DNA of 64,000 nt, from positions 30,446-94,445 of IMG/VR virus record IMGVR_UViG_3300045988_127716. One strand, 5' to 3'. A program made the position numbers and the translations under genes. Numbering within the stretch: the first letter of the stretch is position 1; each line of letters starts with the position of its first letter. Source of the stretch: a virus. Shown here piece by piece: positions 16,703 to 39,307 of the stretch. The notes below the pieces were generated by a model. That model had not been told where the DNA came from, searched no databases, and worked only from the letters and a program-made list of their open reading frames with translations.

Positions 16703-17098
16703 ATGTTTAGCAATTGTGTTAATTTCAAGAAACAGGGTGATGTGGGAATGTGTTATGCTATAGCATATTATTCGAAACTGGGATGGACAATCTCAATTCC
16801 AGTTACTGATTCTCAAGATTATGATTTAATAGTAGATACAGGAACTAAGTTGTTAAAGGTGCAAGTAAAGACTACTACTCAAAAAAGTAATTATGGTGTT
16901 TATATTGCAAATTTAAAAACTTGTGGAGGTAATAGGAGCGGAGACACTATTAAGACCTTTGAAAGTAATCAGTCAGATTTAATATTTATACTAACAGATA
17001 GTGGTGATTGTTATTCAATTCCTAGAGATGCTGTTTCTTCTAAGACTACAATTAATTTAGGCGAAAAAGTTTTAATGTACAAGGTGTCATTATTTTAA
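16703..17098 (+). CDS. putative PD-(D/E)XK-fold nuclease-like protein
   Basis: 131 aa. …DSQDYDLIVDTGTKLLKVQVKTT… is compatible with a D…(D/E/Q)xK restriction-endonuclease-like core. It lies at the edge of the tRNA island. Weak call. Confidence 0.3.
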   Translation: MFSNCVNFKKQGDVGMCYAIAYYSKLGWTISIPVTDSQDYDLIVDTGTKLLKVQVKTTTQKSNYGVYIANLKTCGGNRSGDTIKTFESNQSDLIFILTDSGDCYSIPRDAVSSKTTINLGEKVLMYKVSLF

Positions 17099-17193: not shown

Positions 17194-17272
17194 TGCGGGT
17201 GGGTGAAATGGATATATAAATCATTCCAGCCTCATAAGCTGGAGATACTAGGTTCGATTCCTAGACCCGCTA
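17194..17272 (+). tRNA. tRNA-Met(CAT), copy 1 (long D-loop; acceptor register slightly ambiguous)
   Basis: Anticodon arm ccagc-ctCATaa-gctgg perfect, T-arm ctagg-ttcgatt-cctag. Confidence 0.65.
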
Positions 17273-17302
17273 CAAAAGTCACTTACAATACTGCATATTT
17301 AA

Positions 17303-17373
17303 GAACGAATAGCTTAGCGGATAAAGCAATTATCTTCAAATAATAGTTCTGGGTTCGATTCCCAGTTTGTTTA
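17303..17373 (+). tRNA. tRNA, 71 nt, atypical anticodon arm; loop reads cttcaa(a) so candidate anticodon TCA (UGA-reading) or TTC
   Basis: Acceptor gaacgaa/tttgttt (two G-U pairs), D-arm gctt-agcggata-aagc, T-arm ctggg-ttcgatt-cccag. The anticodon stem attat/ataat is perfect only with a 6-nt loop; other registers give a 7- or 8-nt loop with a weaker stem. ACTTACAATA lies 13 nt upstream. Confidence 0.5.
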
Positions 17374-18116
17374 GTAAAATTAGTGACTATTTATATGGGC
17401 TAGTTCTGGCTTTGACAGGTGATTAGAACAGTATTAAGACATGTAGGAAGGCAGTTTCCTTATAAAGGCAAAACTAATAAATGCTAAAGGTAGAGTAATC
17501 TCCTTCTCTAGACCTGCAGCTATTGCAGCGTAAGAGTTGGGTTGTCAACTGACCTAGAAACAGAATAGTTGTAAATATTAAAAAAGGATTGTATTAATAT
17601 AAACAAACCAGAATCCTTGAACCTTAAAAGGTGACAGACCATTGGGTAATTCCATAGGAGCGCTGTTAGGTTTATGAAGTTTCCTTATTCTTTAAAAATA
17701 AGGTGGTGGAGTGGTAATCTACGGTTACCCCAAAGTTTGATAGTTTGTATATACTAGTCATTATAAATACATTGTATTTATTGCACTATTTTAAGAGTTC
17801 TAGTAAAACTATCTATAATTGATCTATGTGATTTATAGATCATAAACATGTATATCTTAATACTAAGTAAATTGTCTGGACCGGAGTTCGACTCTCCGCT
17901 AGTCCACGGGAACAAGTTAGATGTGCTCAGGGGGGATACCCTGAGGGTTAGATAGGGATGGAATCAGAAGTACTAGTCTCCTTCTAGATTGAACCAAGAA
18001 AAGAGTATATAAGCATAGTGGACGCACTAAATTTTGTGAAATTACTCCGCCAAAGAGATTTGGTCTAGTGGCATCTAACTTTTTAAAAATATTAACATTT
18101 TAAATAACAAAACAGT

Positions 18117-18563
18117 ATGGAAAGAATTAACTTCACAGAAGAGAACTTAGCTCAGCTAAAAGATCTTGCAGTAGAGTTCTTATTTAATAGAACTACATTT
18201 AATGGTCCTATGAGTACTCAATATGATGTAACTCAAGTGATACATGACACTACTATGAGTTCTTTAAAGTCTATGTTCAATAGCATTAAATCTGCAATAG
18301 ATAAGAAATCTAATGTAAGTAGATGGACTACTTCAGCTGCAGAACAGAAAGAATTGAAGATTCTTGAGGATAAGAAAGAGTTCTTAGACCTATTAATGGG
18401 ATATAAACTCTATCAAGCTCAGGAAGCTGAAGTTGCTAGAGAAGCAGAAGCTCTTAGAGCTGAGATTAAATCTCTTGAGGAAGATACAAAAACTCCTGAA
18501 GAGAAACTTAAAGAGAAGAAAGAAGCTTTATCTAAGTTAGAGAATTTCTTCAAAATGGTTTAG
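18117..18563 (+). CDS. coiled-coil protein
   Basis: 148 aa; the C-terminal half is heptad-like (AEVAREAEALRAEIKSLEEDTKTPEEKLKEKKEALSKLENF). Confidence 0.4.
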   Translation: MERINFTEENLAQLKDLAVEFLFNRTTFNGPMSTQYDVTQVIHDTTMSSLKSMFNSIKSAIDKKSNVSRWTTSAAEQKELKILEDKKEFLDLLMGYKLYQAQEAEVAREAEALRAEIKSLEEDTKTPEEKLKEKKEALSKLENFFKMV

Positions 18564-18711
18564 GTTTATAAAAACAGTAGCAAGATTATAGTTTACATTT
18601 CTTGCTACTGCATGTTACTTACAATCTAACAAAACTTGTCTGATCTGCAAGTAAAAAAGGATCTCCATAGCTATCATCTTTATTAATAATTAAGTTTAAC
18701 CAAGTAACATT

Positions 18712-20544
18712 ATGAAAGTAGAATTAAATAACAAAGAAACAAATCCTTTTTCTGGGTTAAGAAACTGTTTGAAGATTTTCAACAACGGTGGTCAAGGCAT
18801 CACATTAAGTCAAGATGATTTAAATAAAGCCTGGGAAGAGGTAAAAGATAGTAAAGAGAAGAAAGAGATGTTTTTCTCTCTATTATTCTCATTAGGAGAT
18901 ATTACTGCCAGACAACACAACATCTTTAGAGGTCAAAAAGTTGATTCTGGAGGTAATTCTCAAAGGGAAATCTTTTTCAATTGCATGGAGTGGATGAAAA
19001 AGAATATCCCAGATCAGTTCTTTAAATTCATGAAATCTCATTTATTTAATGAGTATACTTGTTTTGATAATCTATTTAGGAATAGAGTTCAAACTCAGGG
19101 TAAGAAGATTATATCTATTAAATCTGTGTTGAATACATCTGATAATAGATATTTCAATGAGTTATTAGATTACACTGAATCTATTATCAAAGGTAAAAAT
19201 CCTTATGACAAGATGCTTGTAGCTAAATTCTTAACTCTTCCTAGATTATCTCCAAGAAAAGAGCATAAACAAATGCTTCCTCAAACTAAAGAATTGATGA
19301 AAGCAAAGGCTAAATTCTTAGAAGAATTATCTAAGAGAATGAATTGGTCTTATAAAATTGAAGGAAATATACTAAACTTCAAAGGATATAGAGAGTGGAG
19401 GAAGGAATACAACTCTACATTAGAATCTGTTCTTTTCAGTACTGGAAAGATTAAAGATTTTGATGAAATTCAGTTCTTAGAATGGTTGGATAGAATCCCT
19501 GCGCAAGCTAGATTCAGAGTGAGAAACAGAATCATGTTTGAGAAAGAGGGGGTATTTAAATATCCTAAACTGAAAGAGTGGTATGAAAAGTGGGAGAAAT
19601 ACAAAGAAGAGAAACAGGCAGAGCAAAGAGTTCTTGAAGAGAAAGTTCGTCAAGGACAGGCTAGTGTAGAGGATAAAGTTAAATTGGAAAAGGTTAAAAA
19701 AGAAGCCAAGGTAACAGTTGGATCTACTAACTTCCAAGAACTTTATAAAGAGATCCTTAGTGGAAGGATTGATAAACTTAAATTGGAGTCTTTTGTGAAT
19801 AACAAAGTAAGTCTTCAATATAATAGTTTAGTGATTATTGATGACTCTGGATCTATGGGTGGTGCGCCTTTCAACTTTGCTAAATTTATTGCATCTGTTT
19901 GTCTTGTTAAAAATCCAGATGATGATGGAAGAAACCTTTTAGGATTCTTCAATTATGACTCTAGACTATATGGAAGTATGGATAGAGCTGGAAGTAAGAC
20001 TCCTAATAGCTTAATGAGATCAAGTGTGAAGAACATTGTTAAGAAACCTTTTGTAGATCCTCATAAGAGTTTCTATGAAAACTATCAAAACATTTCTTCA
20101 TTCTGCCAAGGTGTATTCCAAGGTGGAGGTACTAGAATAAATAGTATCCCAAAAGGATTTGCTGAACAAGCTAATAATAATCCTGTATTATTAGATGAAC
20201 TTATGCAATATCCAGTTTGGACAATTGTCTCAGATGGAGAATGGAATAATATGTATTCTCCAGAAGCTTCAATGAATGAATTCTTCAGAGATTGTGAGAA
20301 TCTTTTAGGATTTAGACCATTTATCATTGCGATAGATATTCAAAATCCTAATTGGGCACATCAGATATTTAAAGCTGATAGATTTACTGGTATAGATAAC
20401 ATGATCTATATTCCAAGTAACCCAGCTCAAATTGAGCAAATTCTTACAAATTTCAAGGACATTGAAATCTTTGATGTCTATACTCCGTTACTCTCTTTAT
20501 ACAGAAGTAATAGATATGATCTAGTAAGGGCTAATGTAATTTAG
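18712..20544 (+). CDS. vWA-domain protein with large N-terminal domain; hypothesised TROVE/Ro60 (Rsr)-like RNA-binding protein
   Basis: 610 aa. Clear MIDAS motif LVIIDDSGSMGG at about residue 377, the position of the vWA domain in Ro60. N-terminal segments LRNCLKIFNNGGQGITL and EMFFSLLFSLGDI recall Ro60 TROVE segments (…FL.FGSEGGTYY… and …PMLFALA…). Permuted tRNA-like ncRNA candidates lie immediately downstream. The vWA call is firm; the TROVE assignment is inference. Confidence 0.45.
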   Translation: MKVELNNKETNPFSGLRNCLKIFNNGGQGITLSQDDLNKAWEEVKDSKEKKEMFFSLLFSLGDITARQHNIFRGQKVDSGGNSQREIFFNCMEWMKKNIPDQFFKFMKSHLFNEYTCFDNLFRNRVQTQGKKIISIKSVLNTSDNRYFNELLDYTESIIKGKNPYDKMLVAKFLTLPRLSPRKEHKQMLPQTKELMKAKAKFLEELSKRMNWSYKIEGNILNFKGYREWRKEYNSTLESVLFSTGKIKDFDEIQFLEWLDRIPAQARFRVRNRIMFEKEGVFKYPKLKEWYEKWEKYKEEKQAEQRVLEEKVRQGQASVEDKVKLEKVKKEAKVTVGSTNFQELYKEILSGRIDKLKLESFVNNKVSLQYNSLVIIDDSGSMGGAPFNFAKFIASVCLVKNPDDDGRNLLGFFNYDSRLYGSMDRAGSKTPNSLMRSSVKNIVKKPFVDPHKSFYENYQNISSFCQGVFQGGGTRINSIPKGFAEQANNNPVLLDELMQYPVWTIVSDGEWNNMYSPEASMNEFFRDCENLLGFRPFIIAIDIQNPNWAHQIFKADRFTGIDNMIYIPSNPAQIEQILTNFKDIEIFDVYTPLLSLYRSNRYDLVRANVI

Positions 20545-20618
20545 TCCTTACTATTAAAATGACTCAATTATTATAAAAAACAATACAGATACTTACAATA
20601 TTATAAGAATCAATTTAT

Positions 20619-20674
20619 GCAGGTTCGACTCCTGTCTTTTGCATTGGCAGAAGTGGCGAAATTGGTATACGCAC
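20619..20674 (+). ncRNA. permuted tRNA-like module 1 (T-arm, then 3' acceptor strand, tetraloop, 5' acceptor strand, then D-arm); YrlA/Y-RNA-like candidate
   Basis: gcagg-ttcgact-cctgt T-arm (20619-20635). cttttgc-attg-gcagaag forms a 7-bp acceptor-like hairpin. Then tg-gcg-aaattggtata-cgc D-arm-like. ACTTACAATA lies 19 nt upstream. Confidence 0.45.
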
Positions 20675-20779
20675 TGGTCTGAAAAACTGGGGAATATAAT
20701 ATTCAATAGTATCTATTTATGACTTTTCTTTTCCTTGCATGATATATTGATACTTACAAGATCAGACAATCTGTAGGTC

Positions 20780-20837
20780 GAGGGTTCGAATCCTTCAAAT
20801 CGCGCGTTTTGCGAATTTAGCTCAGTAGGTTTAGAGC
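20780..20837 (+). ncRNA. permuted tRNA-like module 2 (T-arm, then acceptor-like hairpin, then canonical D-arm tagctcagtaggtttagagc)
   Basis: gaggg-ttcgaat-ccttc T-arm. aaatcgc-gcgtttt-gcgaatt hairpin with 6 of 7 pairs. Then ta-gctc-agtaggttta-gagc. ACTTACAAGA lies about 20 nt upstream. Confidence 0.45.
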
Positions 20838-20920
20838 AATAGACATTGAAGTATCATTCATATAAGAAAATAATGTTTAGAATAAAAATTATAAAGTCAC
20901 TTACAATATTATCATAATTC

Positions 20921-20994
20921 GTAGAAATAACTCAATAGGATAGAGTACAAAACTTATAATTTTGGTGTTCAGGGTTCAAGTCCCTGTTTTTACA
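20921..20994 (+). tRNA. tRNA-Ile(TAT)
   Basis: Acceptor gtagaaa/tttttac, D-arm actc/gagt, anticodon arm caaaa-ctTATaa-ttttg perfect, T-arm caggg-ttcaagt-ccctg. ACTTACAATA lies 15 nt upstream. Confidence 0.75.
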
Positions 20995-21031
20995 GTGTAA
21001 TTATTATAGTGACTAATTTTATATTTTAAGG

Positions 21032-21133
21032 GGATGGTTTATAACTATTAGTAAATTTATATTTACTTACAAAATCATAAACTGTATGGAAAAATTTACA
21101 CCACAAATGTAGATAAGCAGGTTCGAATCCTGC
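21032..21133 (+). ncRNA. tRNA-like element with ~30-nt insertion (perfect 7-bp long-range acceptor pairing ggggatg/catcccc about 95 nt apart)
   Basis: 5' strand at 21032-21038; T-arm gcagg-ttcgaat-cctgc then catcccc-g. The insertion contains the hairpin agtaaat-ttat-atttact followed by tacaaaatc (the ACTTACAAAATC motif). Confidence 0.4.
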
Positions 21134-21170
21134 CATCCCCGCAAAAGCTACTTACAATAAGATTTAAATT

Positions 21171-21243
21171 ATAACAATAGCTCAATAGGCTGAGCAAATT
21201 TCTGGGGAAAATTAGGTTGTAGGTTCAAGTCCTACTTGTTAAT
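21171..21243 (+). tRNA. tRNA-Pro(GGG)
   Basis: 73 nt. D-arm gctc-aataggct-gagc, anticodon arm aattt-ctGGGga-aaatt perfect, T-arm gtagg-ttcaagt-cctac. Acceptor ataacaa/ttgttaa has an A-A at position 1:72. Motif lies 21 nt upstream. Confidence 0.65.
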
Positions 21244-21277
21244 AAATTTAAAAGTAGCTATTTTTATGAATACTTAA

Positions 21278-21688
21278 TTGGACATTATGTATGATATTAA
21301 TAGAATGAAAGGAGATTTATATGTAAATCATTATCTCTATAAATCTCGTAATGAATACAATCAAATAATTGTATGTGAGATATATAGAGACATTCATGAA
21401 CATATAAATTTCACATTCTATATAACTAGCAAAAGAAAGAGGGGATTTCAAGAAGGAAAGATAACTGGTAAAGATGGAATAAAATCTTTAATATGGGCGA
21501 AAAATTGTCTATTAGATTTTATTAAATATGCTAAACATCATTATCCAAAAGATATTATTACAATTTGGGCGACAGATAAAAGAAGATATAAAGTATATGA
21601 GAGAAGTTTAATTCCATTAGGATTTAAGCATGCAAATGATAGATATAGACATTTTTATCTTAAACTTGATGAATATAGTATAGAATAA
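21278..21688 (+). CDS. hypothetical protein
   Basis: 136-aa ORF embedded in the tRNA island. Confidence 0.4.
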   Translation: MDIMYDINRMKGDLYVNHYLYKSRNEYNQIIVCEIYRDIHEHINFTFYITSKRKRGFQEGKITGKDGIKSLIWAKNCLLDFIKYAKHHYPKDIITIWATDKRRYKVYERSLIPLGFKHANDRYRHFYLKLDEYSIE

Positions 21689-21694
21689 TTAATA

Positions 21695-21808
21695 GGGGAG
21701 GTTGAAATGTTGGAATAAGAGTATCAGTTCATTGTGATACTTACAAAATCAAATTAATTTTCGAATAAATTTGGGTTTTATCTTAACGCAGGTTCGATTC
21801 CTGTCCTC
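21695..21808 (+). ncRNA. tRNA-like element with ~35-nt insertion (perfect 7-bp long-range acceptor pairing ggggagg/cctcccc); 3' part contains a Pro(TGG)-like anticodon arm
   Basis: 5' strand 21695-21701. Insertion has the hairpin agtatca-gttcattg-tgatact followed by tacaaaatc. Then ataaa-ttTGGgt-tttat arm, then T-arm gcagg-ttcgatt-cctgt, then cctcccc-a. Confidence 0.4.
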
Positions 21809-21854
21809 CCCACTACGTTTCGTAAGAGCAAATAGTCAGACACTTACAATACTA

Positions 21855-21927
21855 TAAATTGTAGCTCATTGGGTAGAGCATTTGATTTTTAATCAAAGGG
21901 TAATGGGTTCAAATCCCATCTTAGTGT
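21855..21927 (+). tRNA. tRNA-Lys(TTT), copy 1, with non-pairing acceptor stem as drawn
   Basis: Canonical D-arm tagctcattgggtagagca, anticodon arm tttga-ttTTTaa-tcaaa, T-arm atggg-ttcaaat-cccat. But the 5' strand taaattg does not pair with 3' cttagtg. Motif lies 4 nt upstream. Confidence 0.45.
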
Positions 21928-21939
21928 CTATTTTTAAAT

Positions 21940-22011
21940 TGAGACATCGTATAACGGTTAATACATCAGATTTTGGTTCTGAGAATCTAGGTTCGAATCC
22001 TAGTGCCTCAA
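21940..22011 (+). tRNA. tRNA-Gln(TTG)
   Basis: Acceptor tgagaca/tgcctca (one mismatch), D-arm gtat/atac, anticodon arm tcaga-ttTTGgt-tctga perfect, T-arm ctagg-ttcgaat-cctag. Confidence 0.7.
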
Positions 22012-24658: not shown

Positions 24659-25144
24659 ATGAAATACGAACATGATTATTCTAAAGAAACATTATCTGAA
24701 ATAGTTTCTAAATGTAGTAACTTAGCTCAAGTATGCAGAGCATATGGAATAACTTCCAGCTCAGGAAACTACAAAACCATCAAGAAAAAGATACAAGAAT
24801 TTAACATAGATATATCTCACTTTACTAGAAAACTTAAAAAAGTAAAGGTATCAGAGAGAGTAAATAATATAGAAGATATTTTAGTAGAAAATTCTCCATA
24901 TCAAAATATTTCTTCCTTAAAGAAAAAGATTTTGAAACAAGGTCTCATGGAATATAAGTGTGCAATATGTGGAATTTCTGAGTGGCTGGGCAATCCTTTA
25001 TCTTTACAATTAGATCACATAAATGGAATTAGTAACGACCATAGACTAGAAAACTTACGACTTGTGTGCCCTAATTGTCATTCACAAACTGAAACATTTG
25101 CGGGAAGAAATGTAAAATTATTAAATGCTTCTAAGACAGAATGA
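24659..25144 (+). CDS. freestanding HNH homing endonuclease
   Basis: 161 aa. N-terminal HTH-like region, C-terminal …CAICGISEW…LQLDHINGISNDHRLENLRLVCPNCHSQTE HNH/zinc-ribbon motif. Lies between tRNA genes. Confidence 0.8.
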   Translation: MKYEHDYSKETLSEIVSKCSNLAQVCRAYGITSSSGNYKTIKKKIQEFNIDISHFTRKLKKVKVSERVNNIEDILVENSPYQNISSLKKKILKQGLMEYKCAICGISEWLGNPLSLQLDHINGISNDHRLENLRLVCPNCHSQTETFAGRNVKLLNASKTE

Positions 25145-26064: not shown

Positions 26065-26634
26065 ATGAGCAAATATAATAAAGAAGAATTAGAAAATTTA
26101 ATACTTGACCAGAACTTATCATACGAAGCTATTGGAAGGATGTATGGAGTTACTGGTAATGCCATTAAGAAGGCAGCTACTAGATTAGGTATAAAATTAC
26201 CCTCAAGAAGGAAGATTAATCCTTGTGAGACATTTAACAAAGATAATTCTAAAGAAGTTAGACATTGCTTAAATTGTGATAAAGAGCTAGATTACAGTGC
26301 TAAGAAATTTTGCTCTCATGAATGCCAACAGGAGTATCAATATTTAACTTATATAGATAGATGGAAGAAAGGATTAGAAACAGGAACTAAAGGTTCTGAT
26401 GCAGTATCAAACTATCTTCGTAAATATTTATTTAATAAGTTTAATAACAAATGTTGTAAATGTCATTGGCTAGAAACTAATCCTTATAGTGGACTTATTC
26501 CTCTACAAGTACATCATAAAGATGGAAATTGCCTTAATAATAATGAAGATAATTTAGAATTATTATGTCCTAATTGTCATGCATTGACTGAAAATTATGG
26601 AAATTTAAATAAAAACTCAAAAAGAATTAGATAG
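26065..26634 (+). CDS. freestanding HNH homing endonuclease
   Basis: 189 aa. HTH-like N-terminus (…AIGRMYGVTGNAIKKAATRLGI…), C-terminal …CCKCHW…LQVHHKDGNCLNNNEDNLELLCPNCHALTE HNH motif. Between tRNA-Ala and an orphan T-arm fragment. Confidence 0.8.
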   Translation: MSKYNKEELENLILDQNLSYEAIGRMYGVTGNAIKKAATRLGIKLPSRRKINPCETFNKDNSKEVRHCLNCDKELDYSAKKFCSHECQQEYQYLTYIDRWKKGLETGTKGSDAVSNYLRKYLFNKFNNKCCKCHWLETNPYSGLIPLQVHHKDGNCLNNNEDNLELLCPNCHALTENYGNLNKNSKRIR

Positions 26635-27881: not shown

Positions 27882-27955
27882 GGAACTGTAGCTCAGTAGG
27901 TAGAGCACTAGATTGAAGATCTAGGTTTGCACTGGTTCGATCCCAGTTAGTTCCA
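27882..27955 (+). tRNA. tRNA-Phe(GAA)
   Basis: Canonical D-arm tagctcagtaggtagagca, anticodon arm ctaga-ttGAAga-tctag perfect, T-arm actgg-ttcgatc-ccagt, acceptor ggaactg/tagttcc. Confidence 0.8.
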
Positions 27956-28312: not shown

Positions 28313-28386
28313 AGAGGATTAACTCAGCGGTTGAGAGTGTCACTTTTACACAGTGAAAGTCATAGGTTCGAATCCTATATCCTCTA
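28313..28386 (+). tRNA. tRNA-Val(TAC)
   Basis: Acceptor agaggat/atcctct perfect, anticodon arm tcact-ttTACac-agtga perfect, T-arm atagg-ttcgaat-cctat. Confidence 0.8.
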
Positions 28387-28388
28387 CT

Positions 28389-28462
28389 GTGTTATTAGCT
28401 TAGTTGGTTAAAGCGCTGGGTTGTGGTTCCAGAGATCATGGGTTCAAGTCCCATATAACACC
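28389..28462 (+). tRNA. tRNA-His(GTG)
   Basis: Acceptor gtgttat/ataacac perfect, D-arm gctt/aagc, anticodon arm ctggg-ttGTGgt-tccag, T-arm atggg-ttcaagt-cccat. Confidence 0.8.
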
Positions 28463-31091: not shown

Positions 31092-32918
31092 ATGGAAGGA
31101 TTAGATTTAAGTTCACTATTAATTGTAGCAGGAATTTTAGTTGTAGTAATTATTATTACTATCATTGCGGTTTTATCAAGATATAGGAAATGTCCTCCTG
31201 ATAAAATCTTAATAATTTATGGTAAATCTTCTAAGGATAAAGAAGGTAATAAGAAACCTTCTAAGGTTATTCATGGAGGATCTACATTTGTTTGGCCTTA
31301 TTTCCAAGGTTATACCACAATGTCCTTAATTCCAATTCAGTTTAAATGTACTATTGCTGATGCATTATCAAGTCAATATATTAGAGTAACTGTGCCTATT
31401 ACAGCTACAGTTGCTGTAAATTCTGAAGAACCATTTGTTCAAAATGCAGTGAGTAGATTGGCTGGATTGACTGAGGATACTATTATAGAAATGACTAGAG
31501 AAATTATCTATGGCCAATTTAGGGAAATTATTTCTAAATCTTCTATTGAACAGTTAAATGCTGACAGAGATGCTTTTAGAACTAACTGTGAGCAAAGTAT
31601 TGCTAGTGAGTTAAATAAACTAGGATTGAAACTTATCAATATTAACATTGTGGATATTCAAGATGAAGCTGGATATATTGCAAATATTGGTAAGAAAGAA
31701 GCAGCTAAGGCAGTTAATCAAGCTAAAGTAGAAACCGCAGAGGAAGACAAACAAGGAGCAACTAAGAGTGCTGAGATTGAAAAGGATAAAGCAACCCAAG
31801 TAGCAGAGACTGAGAAGAATAGAATTAGTATTTTAGCAGAAACTAAGAAAGAAGAAGCTATTAAGGTTGCAGAAACTGAGAAGAATAGAGTAAGTGCTCT
31901 AGCAGAGATTGAGAAGGAGAAAGCTACTCAAGTAGCAGAAGCTGATAGGATTAGAGAGACCACTGTGGCTGAAACCAAAGCTCAAGAAAGTGCAAGTATT
32001 GTACAATCTAAGAATAATGCAGCTGTAGAAATTGCTAAATCAGATGCAGAAAGGGAATCTAAACAAGTAGAGTTTGATAACTCTAAGGAAATTAAGATTG
32101 CCCAATCTAATTCTGAAATGGAAATTAGAAAAGCGGAAGCTGAGAAGAATGCAATGGTTGGGAAGAATGAGGCAATGAAAGCTGTTGCAACCTCTGAAGG
32201 AGAATTGAAAGTAACTGAAGCAGAAGCTGAGAGAAAAGCTAGAGAGGCTCAAGTAATTGCAGATGCTAAGGTTAAAGAAAGACAAGAGCTTCAACAAAAA
32301 GCTGTAGAAGAAGCTAGAGCACAAAAGGTTGAAACCCAGTTAAAAGCTGAAAAGATTGTTCCTGCAGAAATTGAGAAGGAGAAAGCTCGTCTTAATGCGG
32401 AGGCTTATCAGAATGAAGTAACTGGTAAAGCTAAAGCTGAAGCTGAGGCTATTAAACTCAAAGCAGAGGCAGAAGCAGCTGCAATTAGATTAAAACAAGA
32501 AGCAGAAGCAGCAGGTATTCAGGCTAAACTTGAAGCTGAGGCTGAGGGTAAGAGAAAGTCTGCATTGGCTGAGGCTGAGGGATTTAAGGCAACCATGGAA
32601 GCAGCTAAAGGAAATGAAACCTTAGCAATTCATTACAAGATGGTTACTCAATACAAAGAAATTGCTGGTGAGCAGGTTAAAGCATTTGAGAAGATGAACC
32701 TTGGAAATATCAATATCTTTGATACTGGTGATGGTAAAGGTGCTGGGAAGTTCATGAGAGATATTGTTAACACAGTTGCACCTGCAACTAGTGTGTTATC
32801 CGAAATGCCAGTAATTGGAAAAGCTGTAAAAGCATTAGAGAGTGCTTTGGATAAGAAGAATGAGAGTGGGAATGAAGAGGGAGATGTTAAATCTTCTGCT
32901 TTTGAAGAAGTAAAGTAA
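31092..32918 (+). CDS. SPFH/band-7 flotillin-like protein (YqiK/FloA-like) with long EA-rich coiled coil
   Basis: 608 aa. N-terminal TM (LLIVAGILVVVIIITIIAVL), SPFH-like domain (…KVIHGGSTFVWPYFQGYTTMSLIPIQF…IRVTVPITATVAV…), then about 300 aa of A/E/K-rich repeats (flotillin-type coiled coil). Confidence 0.65.
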   Translation: MEGLDLSSLLIVAGILVVVIIITIIAVLSRYRKCPPDKILIIYGKSSKDKEGNKKPSKVIHGGSTFVWPYFQGYTTMSLIPIQFKCTIADALSSQYIRVTVPITATVAVNSEEPFVQNAVSRLAGLTEDTIIEMTREIIYGQFREIISKSSIEQLNADRDAFRTNCEQSIASELNKLGLKLININIVDIQDEAGYIANIGKKEAAKAVNQAKVETAEEDKQGATKSAEIEKDKATQVAETEKNRISILAETKKEEAIKVAETEKNRVSALAEIEKEKATQVAEADRIRETTVAETKAQESASIVQSKNNAAVEIAKSDAERESKQVEFDNSKEIKIAQSNSEMEIRKAEAEKNAMVGKNEAMKAVATSEGELKVTEAEAERKAREAQVIADAKVKERQELQQKAVEEARAQKVETQLKAEKIVPAEIEKEKARLNAEAYQNEVTGKAKAEAEAIKLKAEAEAAAIRLKQEAEAAGIQAKLEAEAEGKRKSALAEAEGFKATMEAAKGNETLAIHYKMVTQYKEIAGEQVKAFEKMNLGNINIFDTGDGKGAGKFMRDIVNTVAPATSVLSEMPVIGKAVKALESALDKKNESGNEEGDVKSSAFEEVK

Positions 32919-35119: not shown

Positions 35120-35357
35120 AAATGTAATTTGTATTATACTAACATTAATTGTAGTATGTGTAATAGTAGATGTGGTAGGGTATGAGTCTCAAATTAATCC
35201 CAGAGACATGGATATAACTCTTCTAATATCTTCAATGATATATAGCATCTCCATTGGTTTTATAACGGGTCATGTTTTGGGTTTTATAATTGCCATATTA
35301 GGAGGTAAGGATTACATATTTAAGAATAATAAATTTCAAATAATAGATAAAGAATGA
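35106..35357 (+). CDS. small membrane protein
   Basis: 83 aa, two or three TM helices. Confidence 0.35.
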   Translation: MKIFKNVICIILTLIVVCVIVDVVGYESQINPRDMDITLLISSMIYSISIGFITGHVLGFIIAILGGKDYIFKNNKFQIIDKE

Positions 35358-35857
35358 AAGGTGAATTAGTTATTGGAGCAATTGCAGGTGATATTCTGGG
35401 ATCTCCTTATGAAAGAAATGCAGTATATAATCCAGATGTAGATCTTACTGATGAACAAGATTTTACAGATGATTCTATATTAACTATCGCAACTATGGAA
35501 TGTATGCTTGATGATTCTGAGGAATTTGAAAAATATTACATGAAATGGGGAAGAAAATTTATAGGTGAATCTATATGGGGTAAAAATTTCTTTAAATGGT
35601 TACATGATGGAGATTGTAAGGCAATTAATCATTCATGGGGAAATGGATGTTTAATGAGAATTAGTCCTATAGCATACTTTCCTGGAACTGAAGAAGATTG
35701 TAAAAGATTAGCTATTTTATCTTGTCAATATACTCATAATTGTCCAGAGAGTTTCTTAGCCGCAATTGAGTATGTAGGATATTTATATAGATTTGGAACA
35801 TTGTCTAGTTATGGAAGTCTTTGTATTAAATTTGTGGAAAAATGTATGATTTCATAA
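35354..35857 (+). CDS. ADP-ribosylglycohydrolase (ARH/DraG-family)-like protein, short form or N-terminal portion
   Basis: 167 aa. VIGAIAGDILGSPYE matches the N-terminal signature of the ARH family (G.A.GD..G.P.E); FTDDSILT matches the second metal-site motif. Typical ARHs are about 300 aa, so this may be truncated. Confidence 0.5.
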   Translation: MKGELVIGAIAGDILGSPYERNAVYNPDVDLTDEQDFTDDSILTIATMECMLDDSEEFEKYYMKWGRKFIGESIWGKNFFKWLHDGDCKAINHSWGNGCLMRISPIAYFPGTEEDCKRLAILSCQYTHNCPESFLAAIEYVGYLYRFGTLSSYGSLCIKFVEKCMIS

Positions 35858-36276
35858 TTTATACAGATGGATCTTATAAATCATCTAGAAAGCAGGGAGG
35901 ATATAGTGTAGTAATATGTAACAACAATGAGGAGGTAATAAAAACTATCTTCAAAGGAGTTAAAAATACTACCAACAACAGAATGGAATTATCTGGATTT
36001 ATTTCAGCATTGGAAAACATTCCAAAGGGATCTAAAGTGAAAATAATATCTGATTCAGAATATGTCTTAAATCCTCTGACTAAAGGATGGTTGGATAAAT
36101 GGATAAAAGAAGATTTCAAGGACAAGAAAAATCCGGATTTGTGGAAGAAAGTTGCGGAATTATTACCTGATTATAATATAGAATTGGAATGGGTTAAAGG
36201 TCATGAAGATTCTAAATTAAATAATCTAGCTGATATGTTAGCACAACACGCTGGAGAAGTGGATTTAGATAATTAA
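35842..36276 (+). CDS. rnhA: ribonuclease HI
   Basis: 144 aa. IYTDGS, TNNRMELSGFISALE, SDSEYV, WVKGHEDSKLNNLADMLA align with the RNase H1 catalytic motifs of E. coli RnhA (DEDD residues). Confidence 0.85.
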   Translation: MYDFIIYTDGSYKSSRKQGGYSVVICNNNEEVIKTIFKGVKNTTNNRMELSGFISALENIPKGSKVKIISDSEYVLNPLTKGWLDKWIKEDFKDKKNPDLWKKVAELLPDYNIELEWVKGHEDSKLNNLADMLAQHAGEVDLDN

Positions 36277-36286
36277 AATTAAAAAC

Positions 36287-36724
36287 ATGTGTTTAATAGT
36301 ACAATCAAGAGAACCTAAGATAGCAGAGGAAGATATAGTCTGTTATAAATTAGTTAAATATTGGGAAGATGCAGATATTTATGTATCTTCCATGCAGCAC
36401 TTTCCTATAGCCTCTTCTAGAAAAATTATAGGATTTGCACAAAAGGAGGATTCTGAATATGAAATTTATTCTGATATAAGACGAGAATTAGGATATAATA
36501 TTCATGGAGGATTTTTACATACTTTTGCAAACTTAAAAGATGCTAAACACATTTTATCTGAAGTAAGTAATAAATCTGAATACAGAATGTTTAAATGCAT
36601 TATTCCTATTAGTACTACATATTATGAAGGTACAACAAGATTCATAGTTAATGGAAAGTTTATTTCTAATAAAAGTTTTGCATCAAGAGGATTAATTTAT
36701 AAAGAAGAAATACCATGTGTTTAA
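36287..36724 (+). CDS. hypothetical protein, paralogue A (MCLIVQ… family)
   Basis: 145 aa. Its N-terminal region (MCLIVQSREPKIAEEDIVCYKLVKYW…GGFLHTF) is paralogous to the N-terminus of the next ORF (MCLTVLNKNHHIAESDITCYKLFKIK…GGVIHSF). Confidence 0.4.
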   Translation: MCLIVQSREPKIAEEDIVCYKLVKYWEDADIYVSSMQHFPIASSRKIIGFAQKEDSEYEIYSDIRRELGYNIHGGFLHTFANLKDAKHILSEVSNKSEYRMFKCIIPISTTYYEGTTRFIVNGKFISNKSFASRGLIYKEEIPCV

Positions 36725-37518
36725 CAGTATTAAATAAAAATCATCATATAGCCGAGAGTGACATTACTTGCTATAAGTTATTTAAAATAAAAAGTGGAAA
36801 ACTTGTTACTAAATATCAAGAATTTGAGGTGGATCCAACAAAAGAGCTAGTGGCCAAAGGGAGACTTGATATTGTAAAATGTAATGAGGAGTGGGAGATT
36901 AATGGAGGAGTAATTCATTCATTTTCAACTATTCTTGGAGCACTTTTATATAGTGAAAGGAATACAGTTTTATATGAATGTGTTATCCCGAAAGGAGCTA
37001 AATATTATATTGGAAAGTTCTCAGCATCTGGTTCTTATGGATCTGAAAAACTTACTTTAGTAAGAAAAATAGAAGTAACAGAGTATAGAAGCCTGTTGAA
37101 TGAATATCTTTCAGACATTCCTGACAAGTTTGAGAATGTTTATGATATTAAGTCCTATTCTGCAGCTCTTAAGTATTTAAATGAAGAAGCTGCTCCAGAA
37201 ACTGGAGATGAGTGTGTTGATGCTTTCATTAAATTAAGAACAATTGCTAGAGCATGGAATAAATTTATGGGATTTGAGATTAATTTTAAGGATTTTAATC
37301 AATATAGATATGCTCCATATTTTTATTTGGCAGATATACTAAGCAATGACGGTGCCTACTCCGGTTTCGGCTACTGTTGTTCGCACTCCGGCGTGTCTTC
37401 TGCCGTTGCCTATGTCAGCGGCCGGCTTTTATTTGAAAATGATGGAACTGCCAGATTATTTGGGTTTATGTTCTTTGATTTGTACAAAAAGTATTTAATG
37501 CTTGATGGCGACTTCTAA
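36715..37518 (+). CDS. hypothetical protein, paralogue B with C-terminal extension containing a GC-rich patch
   Basis: 267-aa ORF. Nucleotides about 37349-37427 are strikingly GC-rich (…ggtgcctactccggtttcggctactgttgttcgcactccggcgtgtcttctgccgttgcctatgtcagcggccggc…). Confidence 0.4.
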   Translation: MCLTVLNKNHHIAESDITCYKLFKIKSGKLVTKYQEFEVDPTKELVAKGRLDIVKCNEEWEINGGVIHSFSTILGALLYSERNTVLYECVIPKGAKYYIGKFSASGSYGSEKLTLVRKIEVTEYRSLLNEYLSDIPDKFENVYDIKSYSAALKYLNEEAAPETGDECVDAFIKLRTIARAWNKFMGFEINFKDFNQYRYAPYFYLADILSNDGAYSGFGYCCSHSGVSSAVAYVSGRLLFENDGTARLFGFMFFDLYKKYLMLDGDF

Positions 37519-37831
37519 AAAATCAAATAACACAGAAGAAGAAGAAAAGGTCTCCTCTAAAACTATCATTCTAGAAGAAAACTTTAGAATTGATCAGGGA
37601 GGAGCACCTGGTAGATATAGTTTATATGTTAAAAAGATAATTAGTAAAGGTAAATCCTCTGAAAGAGAAGATTGGGATATAGTAGGATATGATTTTCATA
37701 TGGATGTTCTTTTGAAAAAACTTACTCACATCTTAACTGATAAGAAATTTCCAGAGGCAGTTACTATAAAAGAGTATTTTAAAGAATATTTTAAGGTATC
37801 CAAATATCTTACTGATTTGATAAAAATATGA
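37502..37831 (+). CDS. hypothetical protein
   Basis: 109-aa ORF. Confidence 0.4.
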   Translation: MMATSKKSNNTEEEEKVSSKTIILEENFRIDQGGAPGRYSLYVKKIISKGKSSEREDWDIVGYDFHMDVLLKKLTHILTDKKFPEAVTIKEYFKEYFKVSKYLTDLIKI

Positions 37832-38160
37832 AAAGTTATAATTTATTAGAAGAAATTTATAGCGTCCTAGATGCTTATGAATTATCTACAAAAGACATTT
37901 TATGGTGCGGAAGTGAGGATTTCAGAACTGTATGGAAGCAATTTGAAGAAGTTGCTAAGTATACTGATTATGAAAAGAAATCTGAATTACCTCAGGACTT
38001 AGTCATTGTGGCTAATGGATGGTATTTATCACTTATTCCTGACGAAATGGATCCAGATTTATTTGAAGTCATTGAAACACCTAGGATGCCAAGTTTAATA
38101 AAGGATATTAAACATTTAACTAGTAAAGAATCATATCTCAATTTAATTGATATTAATTAA
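37828..38160 (+). CDS. hypothetical protein
   Basis: 110-aa ORF. Confidence 0.4.
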   Translation: MKSYNLLEEIYSVLDAYELSTKDILWCGSEDFRTVWKQFEEVAKYTDYEKKSELPQDLVIVANGWYLSLIPDEMDPDLFEVIETPRMPSLIKDIKHLTSKESYLNLIDIN

Positions 38161-38435
38161 TGTTAGCTGAAGTAAAAGTTTTAGCAAATTTTAAAGAGCT
38201 TGAGGAAAACCAAAGGCAAAGAGATAAAGAAGAGGATACTATGGGTATGGCTAGTACTCCTAAATTAAAAGAAGAGTACAAGTATGTTCCTTTTGTATTT
38301 AAATTAGATGAAGTTAAGAGAGCTTATTACTCCTCAGATTTAAAAGATATTATATTAGGATTTGCTGACTCTGATTTTACAGTAAAAGCTAGTGAAGAAT
38401 TATGGAACTTAATTTTAACAAAAATAAATAATTAA
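38160..38435 (+). CDS. hypothetical protein
   Basis: 91-aa ORF. Confidence 0.35.
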   Translation: MLAEVKVLANFKELEENQRQRDKEEDTMGMASTPKLKEEYKYVPFVFKLDEVKRAYYSSDLKDIILGFADSDFTVKASEELWNLILTKINN

Positions 38436-38437
38436 CT

Positions 38438-39019
38438 ATGAAAAATAAGGAATCAAAAATTAGAGATCAGTATGTAATTGGTGAGTTTACTGATTTTACA
38501 GGAGAGAAAAGAGAGTTTGTTATCTGTGGTATTAGTAAAGAGATTTACTATGAAACTAGAAGAGTGGTTGTAGATGCTCTAGGTTTTCATGAACCAGTTA
38601 AAGAAAAGGATGAGTTTGCTTTTAAGAGCGTAAATTTTGGAATTGCAGTGAGAAATCATGGAGATGTATTTTCTGAAGAAGTAGGAAAGTCTATAGCTAA
38701 ATCTTACGCAATGAATAAACCATTTGAAACAGTATGTGCATATAATAAGTTTACCCTTAATTATGACACTATCAGTGCAATGTTAGATTCATTTGCAAAA
38801 TTCTTCATTGAGAATCCTGCAATGTTTATTCCATCTTATGCTAAACGTAAAGCAGAATATGATAAAAATCCCAACTTGTGGTTAGCTAAGAGAGATTTCC
38901 AAGCACAAAAGGAAGAGAATATTAAGAAGGCTGAACTTGCTCTGAAAGAGGCTAAAGCATCTAAGTTTGGAGGCTTTATCAACGATCCAGAAGAAGCTCC
39001 TAAACTCTTAACTAGGTAA
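38438..39019 (+). CDS. hypothetical protein
   Basis: 193-aa ORF. Confidence 0.4.
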   Translation: MKNKESKIRDQYVIGEFTDFTGEKREFVICGISKEIYYETRRVVVDALGFHEPVKEKDEFAFKSVNFGIAVRNHGDVFSEEVGKSIAKSYAMNKPFETVCAYNKFTLNYDTISAMLDSFAKFFIENPAMFIPSYAKRKAEYDKNPNLWLAKRDFQAQKEENIKKAELALKEAKASKFGGFINDPEEAPKLLTR

Positions 39020-39023
39020 TATA

Positions 39024-39302: not shown

Positions 39303-39307
39303 TTATT

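What the first reader, a model, noticed from the sequence alone, without database searches (positions are those of the whole stretch)
18712..20860. Ro60/TROVE-like vWA protein followed by two circularly permuted tRNA-like RNAs (Y-RNA/YrlA-like candidates)
The 610-aa ORF has an unambiguous vWA MIDAS motif (IIDDSGSMGG) at about residue 377, the position of the vWA domain in Ro60/Rsr, and N-terminal segments reminiscent of the TROVE domain. Directly downstream are two modules in which a canonical T-arm and 3' acceptor strand come first, a short loop closes an acceptor-like hairpin (cttttgc-attg-gcagaag; aaatcgc-gcgtttt-gcgaatt), and the 5' acceptor strand and D-arm follow. That is the tRNA order rotated so the ends emerge where the anticodon stem would be. 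Bacterial YrlA Y RNAs, the RNA partners of Rsr, are described as having such a tRNA-like domain, and rsr and Y-RNA genes are usually adjacent. A phage-borne Ro60/Y-RNA pair inside a tRNA island would be notable.
Basis: partly seen in the sequence, partly recalled or inferred. Interest (0 to 1): 0.85.

Follow-up and report, generated by a model that had tools for sequence, protein, structure and literature searches.

The report
Phage Ro60-like protein with permuted tRNAs
A gut crAss-like phage encodes a Ro60-like (helical + vWA) protein next to a cluster of small RNA genes, two of them tRNAs written in rotated order, that all share one conserved stem-plus-ACUUACAA tag; it looks like a new, very divergent version of the Ro60/Y-RNA particle and includes the first rotated tRNA genes with anticodon arms seen in a phage.

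Summary

The two downstream modules (20587-20714 and 20748-20856) are circularly permuted tRNA-like genes. They are conserved in more than 35 related phage loci with strong covariation. A covariance model built without the window finds them at E 7e-14 and 2e-7. Rfam YrlA is their best non-tRNA match but scores far below threshold.

Several things are new. Module 1 has a canonical anticodon arm. Related units encode NCCA in the acceptor loop. Every unit is closed by a covarying 7-8 bp helix next to an invariant ACUUACAA.

The same helix-plus-motif tag flanks three ordinary tRNAs, interrupts other tRNAs, and sits in the 5' UTR of the protein gene. It occurs almost only beside this gene.

The best reading is a divergent Ro60/YrlA-like ribonucleoprotein. 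The rival is true permuted or spliced tRNAs that use a new processing signal. No experiment tests either.

The parts
18117..18563 (+). 148-aa coiled-coil-like ORF, a conserved upstream neighbour of the 610-aa gene
   Evidence: tblastn finds it directly upstream of the 610-aa gene in 29 of 32 related loci. It has no Pfam, PHROG, NCBIfam or PDB match.
18613..18709 (+). Tag copy in the 5' UTR of the 610-aa gene: TGTTAC + TTACAA ... GTAACA, ending 3 nt before the ATG
   Evidence: Nearly every related locus has GTTAC-TTACAA about 35-40 nt before the start codon. There the partner strand lies in codons 8-9, so the helix encloses the ribosome-binding site and the ATG.
18712..20544 (+). 610-aa protein: helical N-terminal half (residues 1-365) and vWA/MIDAS domain (residues 366-610)
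20587..20714 (+). Permuted tRNA unit 1. Order: X AGATAC, TTACAA, spacer, T arm 20619-20635, acceptor 3' strand, loop ATTG, acceptor 5' strand 20647-20653, D arm 20656-20672, anticodon arm 20674-20690 (loop CUGAAAA, GAA), spacer, Y GTATCT 20709-20714
   Evidence: R1 scores 81.2 bits, E 7e-14. Rfam YrlA scores 22.4 bits. Coordinates were checked. Covariation is shown.
20748..20856 (+). Permuted tRNA-like unit 2, YrlA-type. Order: X TGATAC, TTACAA, spacer, T arm 20780-20796, closed acceptor hairpin 20797-20817, D arm 20820-20837, Y GTATCA 20851-20856. It has no anticodon loop. UCUGU (20770-20774) can pair with AUAGA (20839-20843) in the anticodon-stem position
   Evidence: R1 scores 49.3 bits, E 2e-7. 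Rfam YrlA scores 19.9 bits over the full model. The fold shows the closing helix.
17277..17388 (+). Tag cassette AGTCAC-TTACAA ... GTGACT around an ordinary-topology tRNA (17303-17373)
   Evidence: 31.8 bits.
20895..21014 (+). Tag cassette AGTCAC-TTACAA ... GTGACT around tRNA-Ile(TAT) 20921-20994
21030..21140 (+). tRNA-like gene with 7/7 acceptor pairs and the tag in closed form (GTAAA-loop-TTTAC + TTACAA) inserted between the D region and the T arm
   Evidence: (z -3.9).
21146..21259 (+). Tag cassette AGCTAC-TTACAA ... GTAGCT around tRNA-Pro(GGG) 21171-21243
   Evidence: 33.1 bits.
21695..21811 (+). Second tRNA-like gene with an internal closed tag (GTATC-loop-GATAC + TTACAA) and 7/7 acceptor pairs
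21838..21929 (+). tRNA-like body (D, anticodon and T arms, 21861-21920) without an acceptor stem. The tag helix AGACAC(U)/(A)GTGTCT takes the place of the acceptor stem
   Evidence: The Rfam tRNA match covers model positions 7-64 only.

Best explanation
The region encodes a phage ribonucleoprotein system that works like Ro60 with its YrlA-type Y RNAs, but it is built from parts too divergent to be recognised by the family models.

The protein.
- The 610-aa protein has a helical half plus a MIDAS vWA domain. It is Ro60-like by fold.
- I infer that it binds a portable RNA tag. The tag is a 7-8 bp helix, 5'-W G N N A C U-3' paired with 5'-A G U N N C W-3', whose 5' strand runs directly into the invariant single-stranded ACAA (together ACUUACAA).

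The RNAs.
- Each RNA gene beside the protein gene joins this tag to a tRNA-shaped body.
- In the two units of the finding the body is written in rotated order: T arm, acceptor stem closed by a short loop, D arm. The tag is formed by the paired 5' and 3' ends of the transcript. This is exactly the YrlA layout. Unit 1 also keeps a canonical anticodon arm.

Processing (inferred).
- The acceptor stems are 7 bp and many relatives encode NCCA at the start of the loop.
- I therefore infer that host RNase P and 3' processing with CCA addition open the loop. Chen et al. 2014 showed this for Mycobacterium smegmatis YrlA.
- The product would be a two-piece, CCA-ended tRNA mimic held together by the acceptor stem and the tag, and carried on the protein.

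Function (inferred).
- The particle would present tRNA look-alikes with variable anticodons to a host tRNA-binding factor such as a nuclease, modification enzyme or defence protein, or would tether the Ro-like protein to that factor.
- The tag copy over the ribosome-binding site of the protein's own mRNA would give autoregulation.

Shown versus inferred.
- Shown: the RNA structures, their conservation and covariation, the tag, its exclusive linkage to the gene, and the protein's domain layout.
- Inferred: protein-tag binding, RNase P/CCA processing, and the downstream function.
For: RNA structure.
- 27 pairs are 94.8% paired. 22 carry changes on both sides, and no shuffle or slide control comes near.
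- The independent model finds both window units.

The tag is an RNA helix.
- The middle pairs covary (AU, CG, UA at pair 3; UA, CG at pair 4) while the flanking pairs are fixed.
- Neighbouring units in one genome use different helices, each complementary to its own partner. Examples: L007 AGATAC/GTATCT followed by AGCTAC/GTAGCT; L024 GTTAC/GTAAC and GGCTAC/GTAGCC.

Linkage to the gene.
- In the window all 9 plus-strand ACTTACAA sites lie at 17281-21849 and all have a partner strand. The 3 minus-strand sites elsewhere have none.
- In 32 loci there are 144 cassettes within -1/+2.7 kb of the gene and 5 elsewhere.
- A protein-blind DNA pattern scan found 23 loci with permuted units, and 20 of them encode the protein. 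Only 2 of 96 control hits do.
- A crAss-like phage with a canonical TROVE gene has no such cassette.

Tag in the gene's own 5' UTR.
- It is present in nearly all loci. The partner strand has been relocated in the window, where the N-terminal codons differ.

Protein.
- The vWA domain is homologous to TROVE-family vWA.
- MIDAS residues are invariant.

YrlA parallels (from PMC4201824).
- The conserved motif lies near the 5' end on the 5' strand.
- The genes lie within 4 kb on the same strand.
- A YrlA with a 7-bp acceptor stem is cut by RNase P and CCA-added, and both halves stay on Rsr.
- Rfam YrlA is the best non-tRNA family for the units.

NCCA at the loop start.
- 8 of 38 distinct units have it, against 0.22 expected.

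Anticodon arm dispensable.
- Orthologous units carry UUU, GAU, UCA or GUU anticodons, or no anticodon arm at all.
- The window also has an ordinary tRNA-Phe(GAA) at 27882.
Against: - The N-terminal half has no sequence similarity to TROVE.
- Foldseek against the PDB finds only generic vWA domains.
- The best full-length structural matches among viral models are uncharacterised VWFA/DUF7788 proteins (TM 0.5-0.68). A crAss-like TROVE protein ranks fifth with TM 0.29.
- YrlA scores are far below the gathering score, and the Rsr-binding motif is absent.
- Canonical anticodon loops (U33 in 30/31, purine 37 in 31/31) and encoded CCA are what real tRNAs have. YrlA lacks both (10.1101/312249).
- Nothing here shows expression, protein binding or cleavage.
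Confidence: 0.5

Rival explanations
1. These are genuine discontinuous tRNA genes: permuted, intron-bearing and leader/trailer-flanked. They mature into working tRNAs. The helix plus ACUUACAA is a processing signal that plays the role of the archaeal/algal bulge-helix-bulge motif. An endonuclease cuts beside it and a ligase such as host RtcB joins the ends. Permuted precursors become circles that RNase P and a 3' nuclease then open at the acceptor loop, and D-loop insertions are spliced out. In a variant, the two-piece molecule is charged and used without ligation. The 610-aa protein would be a processing or scaffold factor.
For: - After in-silico rotation ARAGORN of 27 units as tRNAs.
- Anticodon loops are canonical: U33 in 30/31 and purine 37 in 31/31. 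There are 15 different anticodons.
- NCCA is encoded at the loop start in 8 of 38 units.
- Some discriminator bases fit the anticodon, for example U73 with GCA and G73 with GUU.
- The tag is found inside otherwise complete tRNAs that Rfam scores at 40-55 bits with an insertion of about 40 nt. In L010 6158-6265 it sits in the D loop of a tRNA-Lys(UUU).
- The mix of permuted, interrupted and flanked genes sharing one motif mirrors the BHB-dependent gene types of archaea and Cyanidioschyzon (background knowledge; discussed in 10.1101/312249).
Against: - The tag also sits in the 5' UTR and start of the protein's own mRNA, and around cargoes of about 50 nt with no tRNA features. A splice signal makes no sense in either place.
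- Distances from the tag to the tRNA body vary by 10-20 nt, so cut sites are not fixed relative to the motif.
- The helix is 7-8 bp with no paired 3-nt bulges, so it is not a BHB.
- Orthologous units lose the whole anticodon arm or swap anticodon without changing the acceptor stem.
- Unit 1 duplicates an ordinary tRNA-Phe(GAA) in the same window.
- No RNA ligase, kinase or splicing-type nuclease was found among 28 window ORFs scanned.
- No protein-based tRNA splicing is known in bacteria (background knowledge).
Confidence: 0.22
2. The helix plus ACUUACAA is transcript punctuation for this part of the tRNA island, and the vWA protein is functionally unrelated to it. The leader-trailer stem followed by a U-run would act as a processing stem (as in rRNA operons), a terminator or a stability element. 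The protein would simply share the same expression signals.
For: - The 3' strand is usually followed by AUUUUU.
- The same element flanks ordinary tRNAs at a fixed 13 nt from their 5' ends.
- TACAAT resembles a -10 hexamer.
Against: - Covariation requires the 5' strand to be in the RNA, so the motif cannot be a -10 element with a start site just downstream.
- The other 17 tRNAs of the same phage (23.7-29.3 kb) and the rest of the 64 kb lack the element.
- The closed form of the tag lies inside tRNA-like genes, where it would be retained after end processing.
- In most loci the partner strand lies inside codons 8-9 of the gene, so excision or termination there would destroy the mRNA.
- The element is linked to this one gene family: 20/23 against 2/96.
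Confidence: 0.1
3. The modules are decayed remnants: the 3' half of one dead tRNA next to the 5' half of another, with no function.
For: The family model also scores junctions between adjacent ordinary tRNAs in the window, for example 28338-28453 at 40.6 bits.
Against: - At such junctions the acceptor pairs fail, shown by the 'vvvv' marks. In the real units 97.7% of acceptor cells pair, with 3-5 pair types per position.
- Units are conserved across phages whose protein is only 44-70% identical.
Confidence: 0.02

Closest known systems
Ro60 (Rsr) with YrlA-type Y RNAs, including phage versions in mycobacteriophages, CcrColossus, Bacillus phage G and Thermus phage phiLo (PMC4201824, PMC12135203, 10.1101/312249)
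   Same: - The protein is a helical half plus a MIDAS vWA domain.
- The RNA genes lie on the same strand within a few hundred bases of the protein gene.
- The RNA ends pair, with a short conserved motif on the 5' strand.
- The tRNA-like domain is written T arm, closed acceptor stem, D arm.
- There are several RNAs per locus.
[quoted passage not shown]
   Different: - No TROVE sequence signal.
- Rfam YrlA scores 20-35 bits against a gathering score of 69.
- The recognition motif is ACUUACAA, not GNCGAAN0-1G.
- Most units keep a canonical anticodon arm, and many encode CCA.
- The tag is also attached to ordinary tRNAs, inserted inside tRNAs, and present in the 5' UTR of the protein gene.
- A conserved 148-aa partner gene lies upstream.
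Circularly permuted tRNA genes of Cyanidioschyzon merolae, other algae and Thermofilum pendens (Soma 2007, Maruyama 2010, Chan 2011; cited through 10.1101/312249)
   Same: - The 3' half precedes the 5' half.
- The acceptor stem is closed by a short linker.
- Leader and trailer pair.
- Permuted genes co-occur with genes interrupted at unusual positions.
   Different: - The closing helix is not a bulge-helix-bulge motif.
- The break lies in the variable region or replaces the anticodon arm.
- The host is a bacterium with no known splicing endonuclease.
- Maturation to a continuous tRNA is unproven.
- Orthologs can lose the anticodon arm.
Two-piece tmRNA from circularly permuted ssrA genes in alpha-proteobacteria and others (background knowledge; Rfam tmRNA_permuted)
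   Same: It is a bacterial precedent for a rotated gene whose transcript is cut into two RNAs. The two pieces stay paired and together form a CCA-ended tRNA-like domain.
   Different: tmRNA has a fixed alanine identity, a coding segment and an SmpB partner. Here there are many bodies with many anticodons and a vWA protein partner.
Uncharacterised viral VWFA/DUF7788 proteins (Acinetobacter phage ME3 A0A172Q0K1, Pithovirus, Myoviridae, ChoanoV1)
   Same: They are the best full-length structural matches to the model (Foldseek E 5e-11 to 1e-8, TM 0.5-0.68).
   Different: Sequence identity is 10-16%. Their function is unknown, and their genomic context was not examined here.

Membership tests
Ro60 / TROVE proteins (PF05731 + PF25045) | TROVE domain detectable by sequence in the N-terminal ~350 residues | tested here: not met
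   Pfam gives no hit at E<10. None of 64 family members hits TROVE. hhalign of the N-terminal profile against a TROVE N-terminal profile gives probability 0.2%. As a positive control, the cr111_1 protein hits TROVE at 1.4e-18.
Ro60 / TROVE proteins (PF05731 + PF25045) | C-terminal vWA domain with a MIDAS site, related to the Ro60 vWA domain | tested here: met
   D377, S379, S381, T474 and D508 are invariant. VWA_2 is found in 17/64 members and vWA_Ro60 in 2/64. hhalign to TROVE-family vWA gives 90%, E 1.7e-6, over 182 columns.
Ro60 / TROVE proteins (PF05731 + PF25045) | Ring of HEAT-like helices closed by the vWA domain (fold) | tested here: inconclusive
Ro60 / TROVE proteins (PF05731 + PF25045) | Binds Y RNA through the stem formed by the RNA ends | not testable with these tools
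   Only genomic linkage is available.
YrlA Y RNA (Rfam RF02553) | Score at or above the family gathering score (69 bits) | tested here: not met
   The window units score 22.4 and 19.9 bits. The best relative scores 35.4 bits (L021 5918-6029).
YrlA Y RNA (Rfam RF02553) | Order: paired ends, T arm, closed acceptor-like hairpin, D arm, with conserved D- and T-loop nucleotides | tested here: met
   Full-length alignments to the YrlA model. Covariation of all helices. GG in the D loops and UUCRA in the T loops.
YrlA Y RNA (Rfam RF02553) | GNCGAAN0-1G motif near the 5' end (the proposed Rsr contact) | tested here: not met
   There is no match in 17201-22000. The only GNCGAA in unit 1 is inside its D arm. 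ACUUACAA occupies the equivalent position.
YrlA Y RNA (Rfam RF02553) | Encoded within about 4 kb of the Ro60 gene on the same strand | tested here: met
   The units start 43 and 204 nt after the stop codon on the same strand. The same holds in the related loci.
Circularly permuted tRNA genes (algal/archaeal type) | The rotated sequence is a canonical tRNA with an anticodon arm | tested here: met
   Met for unit 1 and most relatives. 31 of 38 have a 5-bp/7-nt anticodon arm with U33 and R37. ARAGORN of 27 rotated sequences as tRNAs. It does not call rotated unit 1 itself, and unit 2 has no anticodon loop.
Circularly permuted tRNA genes (algal/archaeal type) | Bulge-helix-bulge motif at the leader/trailer junction | tested here: not met
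   The closing helix is 7-8 continuous pairs followed by ACAA on one strand. There is no pair of 3-nt bulges around a 4-bp helix.
Circularly permuted tRNA genes (algal/archaeal type) | Circular intermediate and a continuous mature tRNA | not testable with these tools
   This needs RNA sequencing of infected cells.

The most novel reading that the evidence does not exclude
CrAss-like phages carry true discontinuous tRNA genes: circularly permuted, D-loop-interrupted and leader/trailer-flanked. All of them are processed through one new RNA signal, the covarying 7-8 bp helix plus ACUUACAA, with the Ro60-like vWA protein as its reader. The products are charged, decoding tRNAs, either religated or working as two-piece molecules. 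This would be the first protein-dependent tRNA splicing or permutation system outside archaea and eukaryotes. It would also be a direct evolutionary bridge between permuted tRNAs and YrlA-type Y RNAs.
Probability: 0.2. Interest if true: 0.95.

Novelty: new variant of a known kind. Interest (0 to 1): 0.8.

Why it matters
What the tRNA-like module of bacterial Y RNAs is for, and whether YrlA RNAs are ever processed towards real tRNAs, are open questions. The second was raised explicitly by Wang et al. 2018 (10.1101/312249).

This phage family offers a natural series running from complete tRNAs to YrlA-like mimics:
- ordinary tRNAs,
- rotated tRNAs with anticodon arms and encoded CCA,
- rotated units that have lost the anticodon arm.

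All of these carry one simple, mutable tag and sit next to one protein gene. That makes protein-RNA recognition, RNase P opening, charging and function directly testable.

The finding also does three other things:
- It defines a protein family of more than 1,200 metagenomic sequences with no annotation and no tblastn match in the GenBank phage collection searched (INPHARED release).
- It shows that rotated tRNA genes exist in phages.
- It points to rapid anticodon turnover in tagged tRNAs of abundant human-gut phages. This may bear on phage counter-measures against tRNA-targeting host defences.

Tried and rejected
- **Sequence searches of the protein.** Pfam, PHROGs, NCBIfam, PADLOC and PDB sequence searches gave nothing beyond weak vWA/MIDAS hits.
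- **GenBank phages.** A megablast of 18000-22000 and a tblastn of the 610-aa protein both found no match, although the DNA polymerase is about 50% identical to Crassvirales.
- **First structure model.** The model from 16 close homologs was poor (pLDDT 70) and was replaced by the 64-sequence model.
- **AFDB fold search.** It was unavailable.
- **Promoter reading of ACTTACAA.** I first took it for a promoter in front of each tRNA. I rejected this because the strand 5' of it covaries with a downstream partner.
- **Integron attC-like or inverted-repeat DNA elements.** Considered and dropped. The variable middle pairs are perfectly compensated and the element occurs inside RNA genes.
- **Self-cleaving ribozymes in the flanks.** No Rfam ribozyme hit at E<10.
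- **Canonical TROVE phage cr111_1.** I looked for YrlA and the tag next to its TROVE gene and found neither.
- **Phage RNA ligase, kinase or splicing nuclease.** None was found among 28 window ORFs. There are only homing endonucleases (PDDEXK_5 and two HNH).
- **Literature.** Searches for permuted tRNAs in phages or Crassvirales found no report.


Full report
**Context.** The window comes from an AT-rich phage with a genome of about 185 kb. ARAGORN finds 27 tRNA genes and a tmRNA, and Rfam adds one more tRNA-like match that ARAGORN misses (21861-21920). Its DNA polymerase is about 50% identical to those of Crassvirales such as cr108_1, IAS virus and Kehishuvirus. The finding lies at the left end of the tRNA island.

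**The protein: sequence evidence.**
- ORF 18712-20544 encodes 610 aa. It has more than 1,200 metagenomic homologs on contigs of about 100 kb and about 185 kb. At 50% clustering it has 156 representative clusters, nearly all 590-690 aa.
- It has no tblastn match in the GenBank phage collection searched. It also has no Pfam, PHROG, NCBIfam, PADLOC or PDB sequence match.
- In a 64-sequence alignment reaching 20% identity, the invariant residues include D377, S379, S381, T474 and D508, a complete MIDAS site.
- Seventeen members hit Pfam VWA_2 and two weakly hit vWA_Ro60.
- A profile-profile comparison with a genuine TROVE family was run. That family was built around the Ro60 homolog of crAss-like phage cr111_1, which hits Pfam TROVE at 1.4e-18. 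The comparison aligns the C-terminal 182 columns at 90% probability.
- The N-terminal halves give 0.2% probability.

**The protein: structural evidence.**
- With the deep alignment AlphaFold gives a confident model, pLDDT 86 and pTM 0.84. It has about 18 helices and three short hairpins in residues 1-365, followed by an alpha/beta vWA domain.
- Foldseek against the PDB sees only vWA domains.
- Among viral models the best full-length matches are uncharacterised VWFA/DUF7788 proteins. The cr111_1 TROVE protein ranks fifth.
- My conclusion is that the layout is Ro60-like and the vWA domain is homologous. The helical half is at best a very remote relative. I put common ancestry of the whole protein with Ro60 at about 50%.

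**The two modules.**
- Unit 1 reads: T arm, CTTTTGC, ATTG, GCAGAAG (7/7 pairs), D arm. Its break is therefore in the variable region.
- Unit 2 has no anticodon loop. Its 5' UCUGU and 3' AUAGA can form the anticodon-stem position, as in YrlA.
- ARAGORN and the Rfam tRNA model do not call either unit.
- RF02553 (YrlA) aligns both over its full length, but at 22.4 and 19.9 bits against a gathering score of 69.

**Conservation of the modules.**
- Thirty-two related phage loci were fetched through the protein. A simple structural scan found the same rotated arrangement next to the gene in most of them, with different acceptor sequences each time.
- An alignment of 18 such units, excluding the window and its 97%-identical twin L001, supports five helices. 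94.8% of cells pair, against 69% after shuffling and 35-41% after sliding. 22 of 27 pairs have changes on both sides.
- The covariance model built from that alignment finds unit 1 at 81.2 bits (E 7e-14) and unit 2 at 49.3 bits (E 2e-7).
- These are real, conserved, structured RNA genes.

**The tag.**
- Every unit begins with 5'-WGNNAC-TTACAA and ends with the exact complement GTNNCW, usually followed by ATTTTT. The middle pairs covary and the outer ones are fixed.
- The first U of UUACAA pairs with an invariant A before the 3' strand, which makes the helix 7-8 bp.
- Adjacent units in one genome use different helices, each matched to its own partner. The pairing is therefore within a unit and at the RNA level. 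That rules out ACTTACAA as a -10 element with a start site just downstream.

**Where else the tag occurs in the window.**
- Around three ordinary-topology tRNAs: 17277-17388, 20895-21014 and 21146-21259.
- In place of the acceptor stem of a tRNA-like body: 21838-21929.
- In closed-hairpin form inside two tRNA-like genes with perfect acceptor stems: 21030-21140 and 21695-21811.
- In the 5' UTR of the 610-aa gene: 18613-18709.
- In relatives the closed form sits in the D loop of otherwise complete tRNAs, which Rfam scores at 40-55 bits.

**Linkage between the tag and the gene.**
- In the window all nine plus-strand ACTTACAA sites lie between 17281 and 21849 and all have a partner strand. The other 17 tRNAs and the rest of the 64 kb have none.
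- In the 32 loci there are 144 cassettes within -1/+2.7 kb of the gene and 5 elsewhere.
- A DNA pattern scan of IMG/VR that knew nothing of the protein returned at least 119 stretches. Twenty-three hold a full rotated unit, and 20 of these encode a family member in the few kilobases fetched.
- The remaining 96 are mainly ordinary tRNA-Val(UAC) genes, whose anticodon loop happens to read CUUACAA. Only 2 of them encode a family member.
- Phage cr111_1, which has a canonical TROVE gene, has no such cassette and no YrlA hit.
- Nearly every locus has the tag over the start of the protein gene. The partner strand usually lies in codons 8-9. In the window, where those codons differ, it lies 3 nt before the ATG. 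This argues for selection on the helix itself.
- A 148-aa ORF precedes the gene in 29 of 32 loci.

**tRNA-like detail in the rotated units.**
- Among 38 distinct units, 31 have a 5-bp/7-nt anticodon arm. U33 is present in 30 and a purine at position 37 in all 31. They carry 15 different anticodons.
- Eight acceptor loops begin with NCCA, against 0.22 expected and at most 3 in 5,000 shuffles.
- After rotation in silico ARAGORN of 27 as tRNAs.
- Against a decoding role, one orthologous unit (same tag, T arm and acceptor stem) carries UUU, GAU, UCA or GUU in different phages, or has no anticodon arm at all.
- Unit 1 duplicates an ordinary tRNA-Phe(GAA) in the window.
- The window and L001, 97% identical here, differ in the anticodon of unit 1 (GAA/GAG). 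They also differ at three positions in the anticodon loop of the tagged tRNA at 21171-21243 (GGG/GGU).

**Interpretation.**
- Chen et al. 2014 report several YrlA properties. YrlA genes lie within 4 kb of rsr on the same strand. They carry a short conserved motif near the 5' end, on the strand Ro60 mainly contacts. They have the T arm, closed acceptor and D arm order.
- The same paper shows that in M. smegmatis, where the acceptor stem is 7 bp, YrlA is cut by RNase P and CCA-added in vivo, and both halves stay on Rsr.
- Wang et al. 2018 describe YrlA as resembling a circularly permuted tRNA that lacks an anticodon loop and a CCA end. They speculate that some YrlAs might be processed further.
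- The phage system matches this design point for point, but with another motif (ACUUACAA instead of GNCGAAN0-1G) and a protein whose helical half is unrecognisable by sequence.
- A protein-binding tag explains every place the element occurs, including the protein's own mRNA and the cargo-less cassettes. A splice signal does not explain those two cases.
- I therefore favour a Ro60/YrlA-like particle, at about 0.5. I keep as the main rival, at about 0.2, that these are true discontinuous tRNA genes with a new processing signal.
- Decay remnants are excluded by covariation. Simple transcript punctuation is unlikely.

**Limits.**
- There are no expression, binding or cleavage data.
- The transcription start is unknown.
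- The model coordinates could not be inspected for a ring.
- Only 64 kb of the roughly 185 kb genome was available to look for a ligase.

Noticed in passing
window 17397-17909: Phage-encoded tmRNA (Rfam 51.5 bits against a gathering score of 47). ARAGORN predicts a very short tag, VNIKKGLY*. tmRNA genes also lie near the 610-aa gene in L007, L015, L024, L025 and L028.
   Followed up: no
window 18117-18563: A 148-aa coiled-coil-like ORF with no family match lies directly upstream of the 610-aa gene in 29 of 32 loci. It may be a partner of the system.
   Followed up: partly
window 21171-21243 vs L001 7668-7742; window 20679-20685 vs L001: Between two phages that are 97% identical in this region, a tagged tRNA changes from Pro(GGG) to Thr(GGU) with three changes in its 7-nt anticodon loop. 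Permuted unit 1 changes from GAA to GAG. Anticodon loops of tagged RNAs look hypervariable.
   Followed up: partly
L006 6208-6283, L007 5985-6060 and 6781-6855, L017 5733-5806, L031 6299-6374; window 17303-17373: ARAGORN reports tagged tRNAs with irregular anticodon loops. It calls four-base 'anticodons' (tttg, ttct, ttgg) in relatives and a two-base call in the window. These could be 8-nt loops or miscalls.
   Followed up: no
window 20593-20598 and all tags: CUUACAA, the last C of the helix plus UUACAA, is identical to the anticodon loop of tRNA-Val(UAC). This is why the IMG/VR pattern scan also returned ordinary tRNA-Val genes. Whether it is mimicry or coincidence is unknown.
   Followed up: partly
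window 16703-17098, 24659-25144, 26065-26634: Free-standing homing-endonuclease-type genes lie in the tRNA island: PDDEXK_5 (I-Ssp6803I family, E 1e-20) and two HNH genes. L005 2036-2276 holds a group I intron (Rfam 99.9 bits).
   Followed up: partly
window 35354-42751: A cluster of NAD-related genes: ADP-ribosylglycohydrolase, a nicotinamide phosphoribosyltransferase-like gene (phrog_448), an isochorismatase/nicotinamidase-like gene and NAD synthase. This looks like an NAD+ salvage or reconstitution module.
   Followed up: no
window 31092-32918: A 608-aa SPFH/Band 7 (flotillin-like) protein is encoded by the phage.
   Followed up: no
L011 5833-5901 and 5941-6003; L007 5849-5917; L018 5839-5894: Short tag cassettes directly after the 610-aa gene enclose only about 40-50 nt with no tRNA features. 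They are small tagged RNAs of unknown role.
   Followed up: partly
window 20655-20660: The D arm of unit 1 (UGGCGAAAUUGG) contains GGCGAA, which matches the core of the YrlA GNCGAA motif but in the wrong place. The same D arm recurs in L003, L007, L019 and L060.
   Followed up: no
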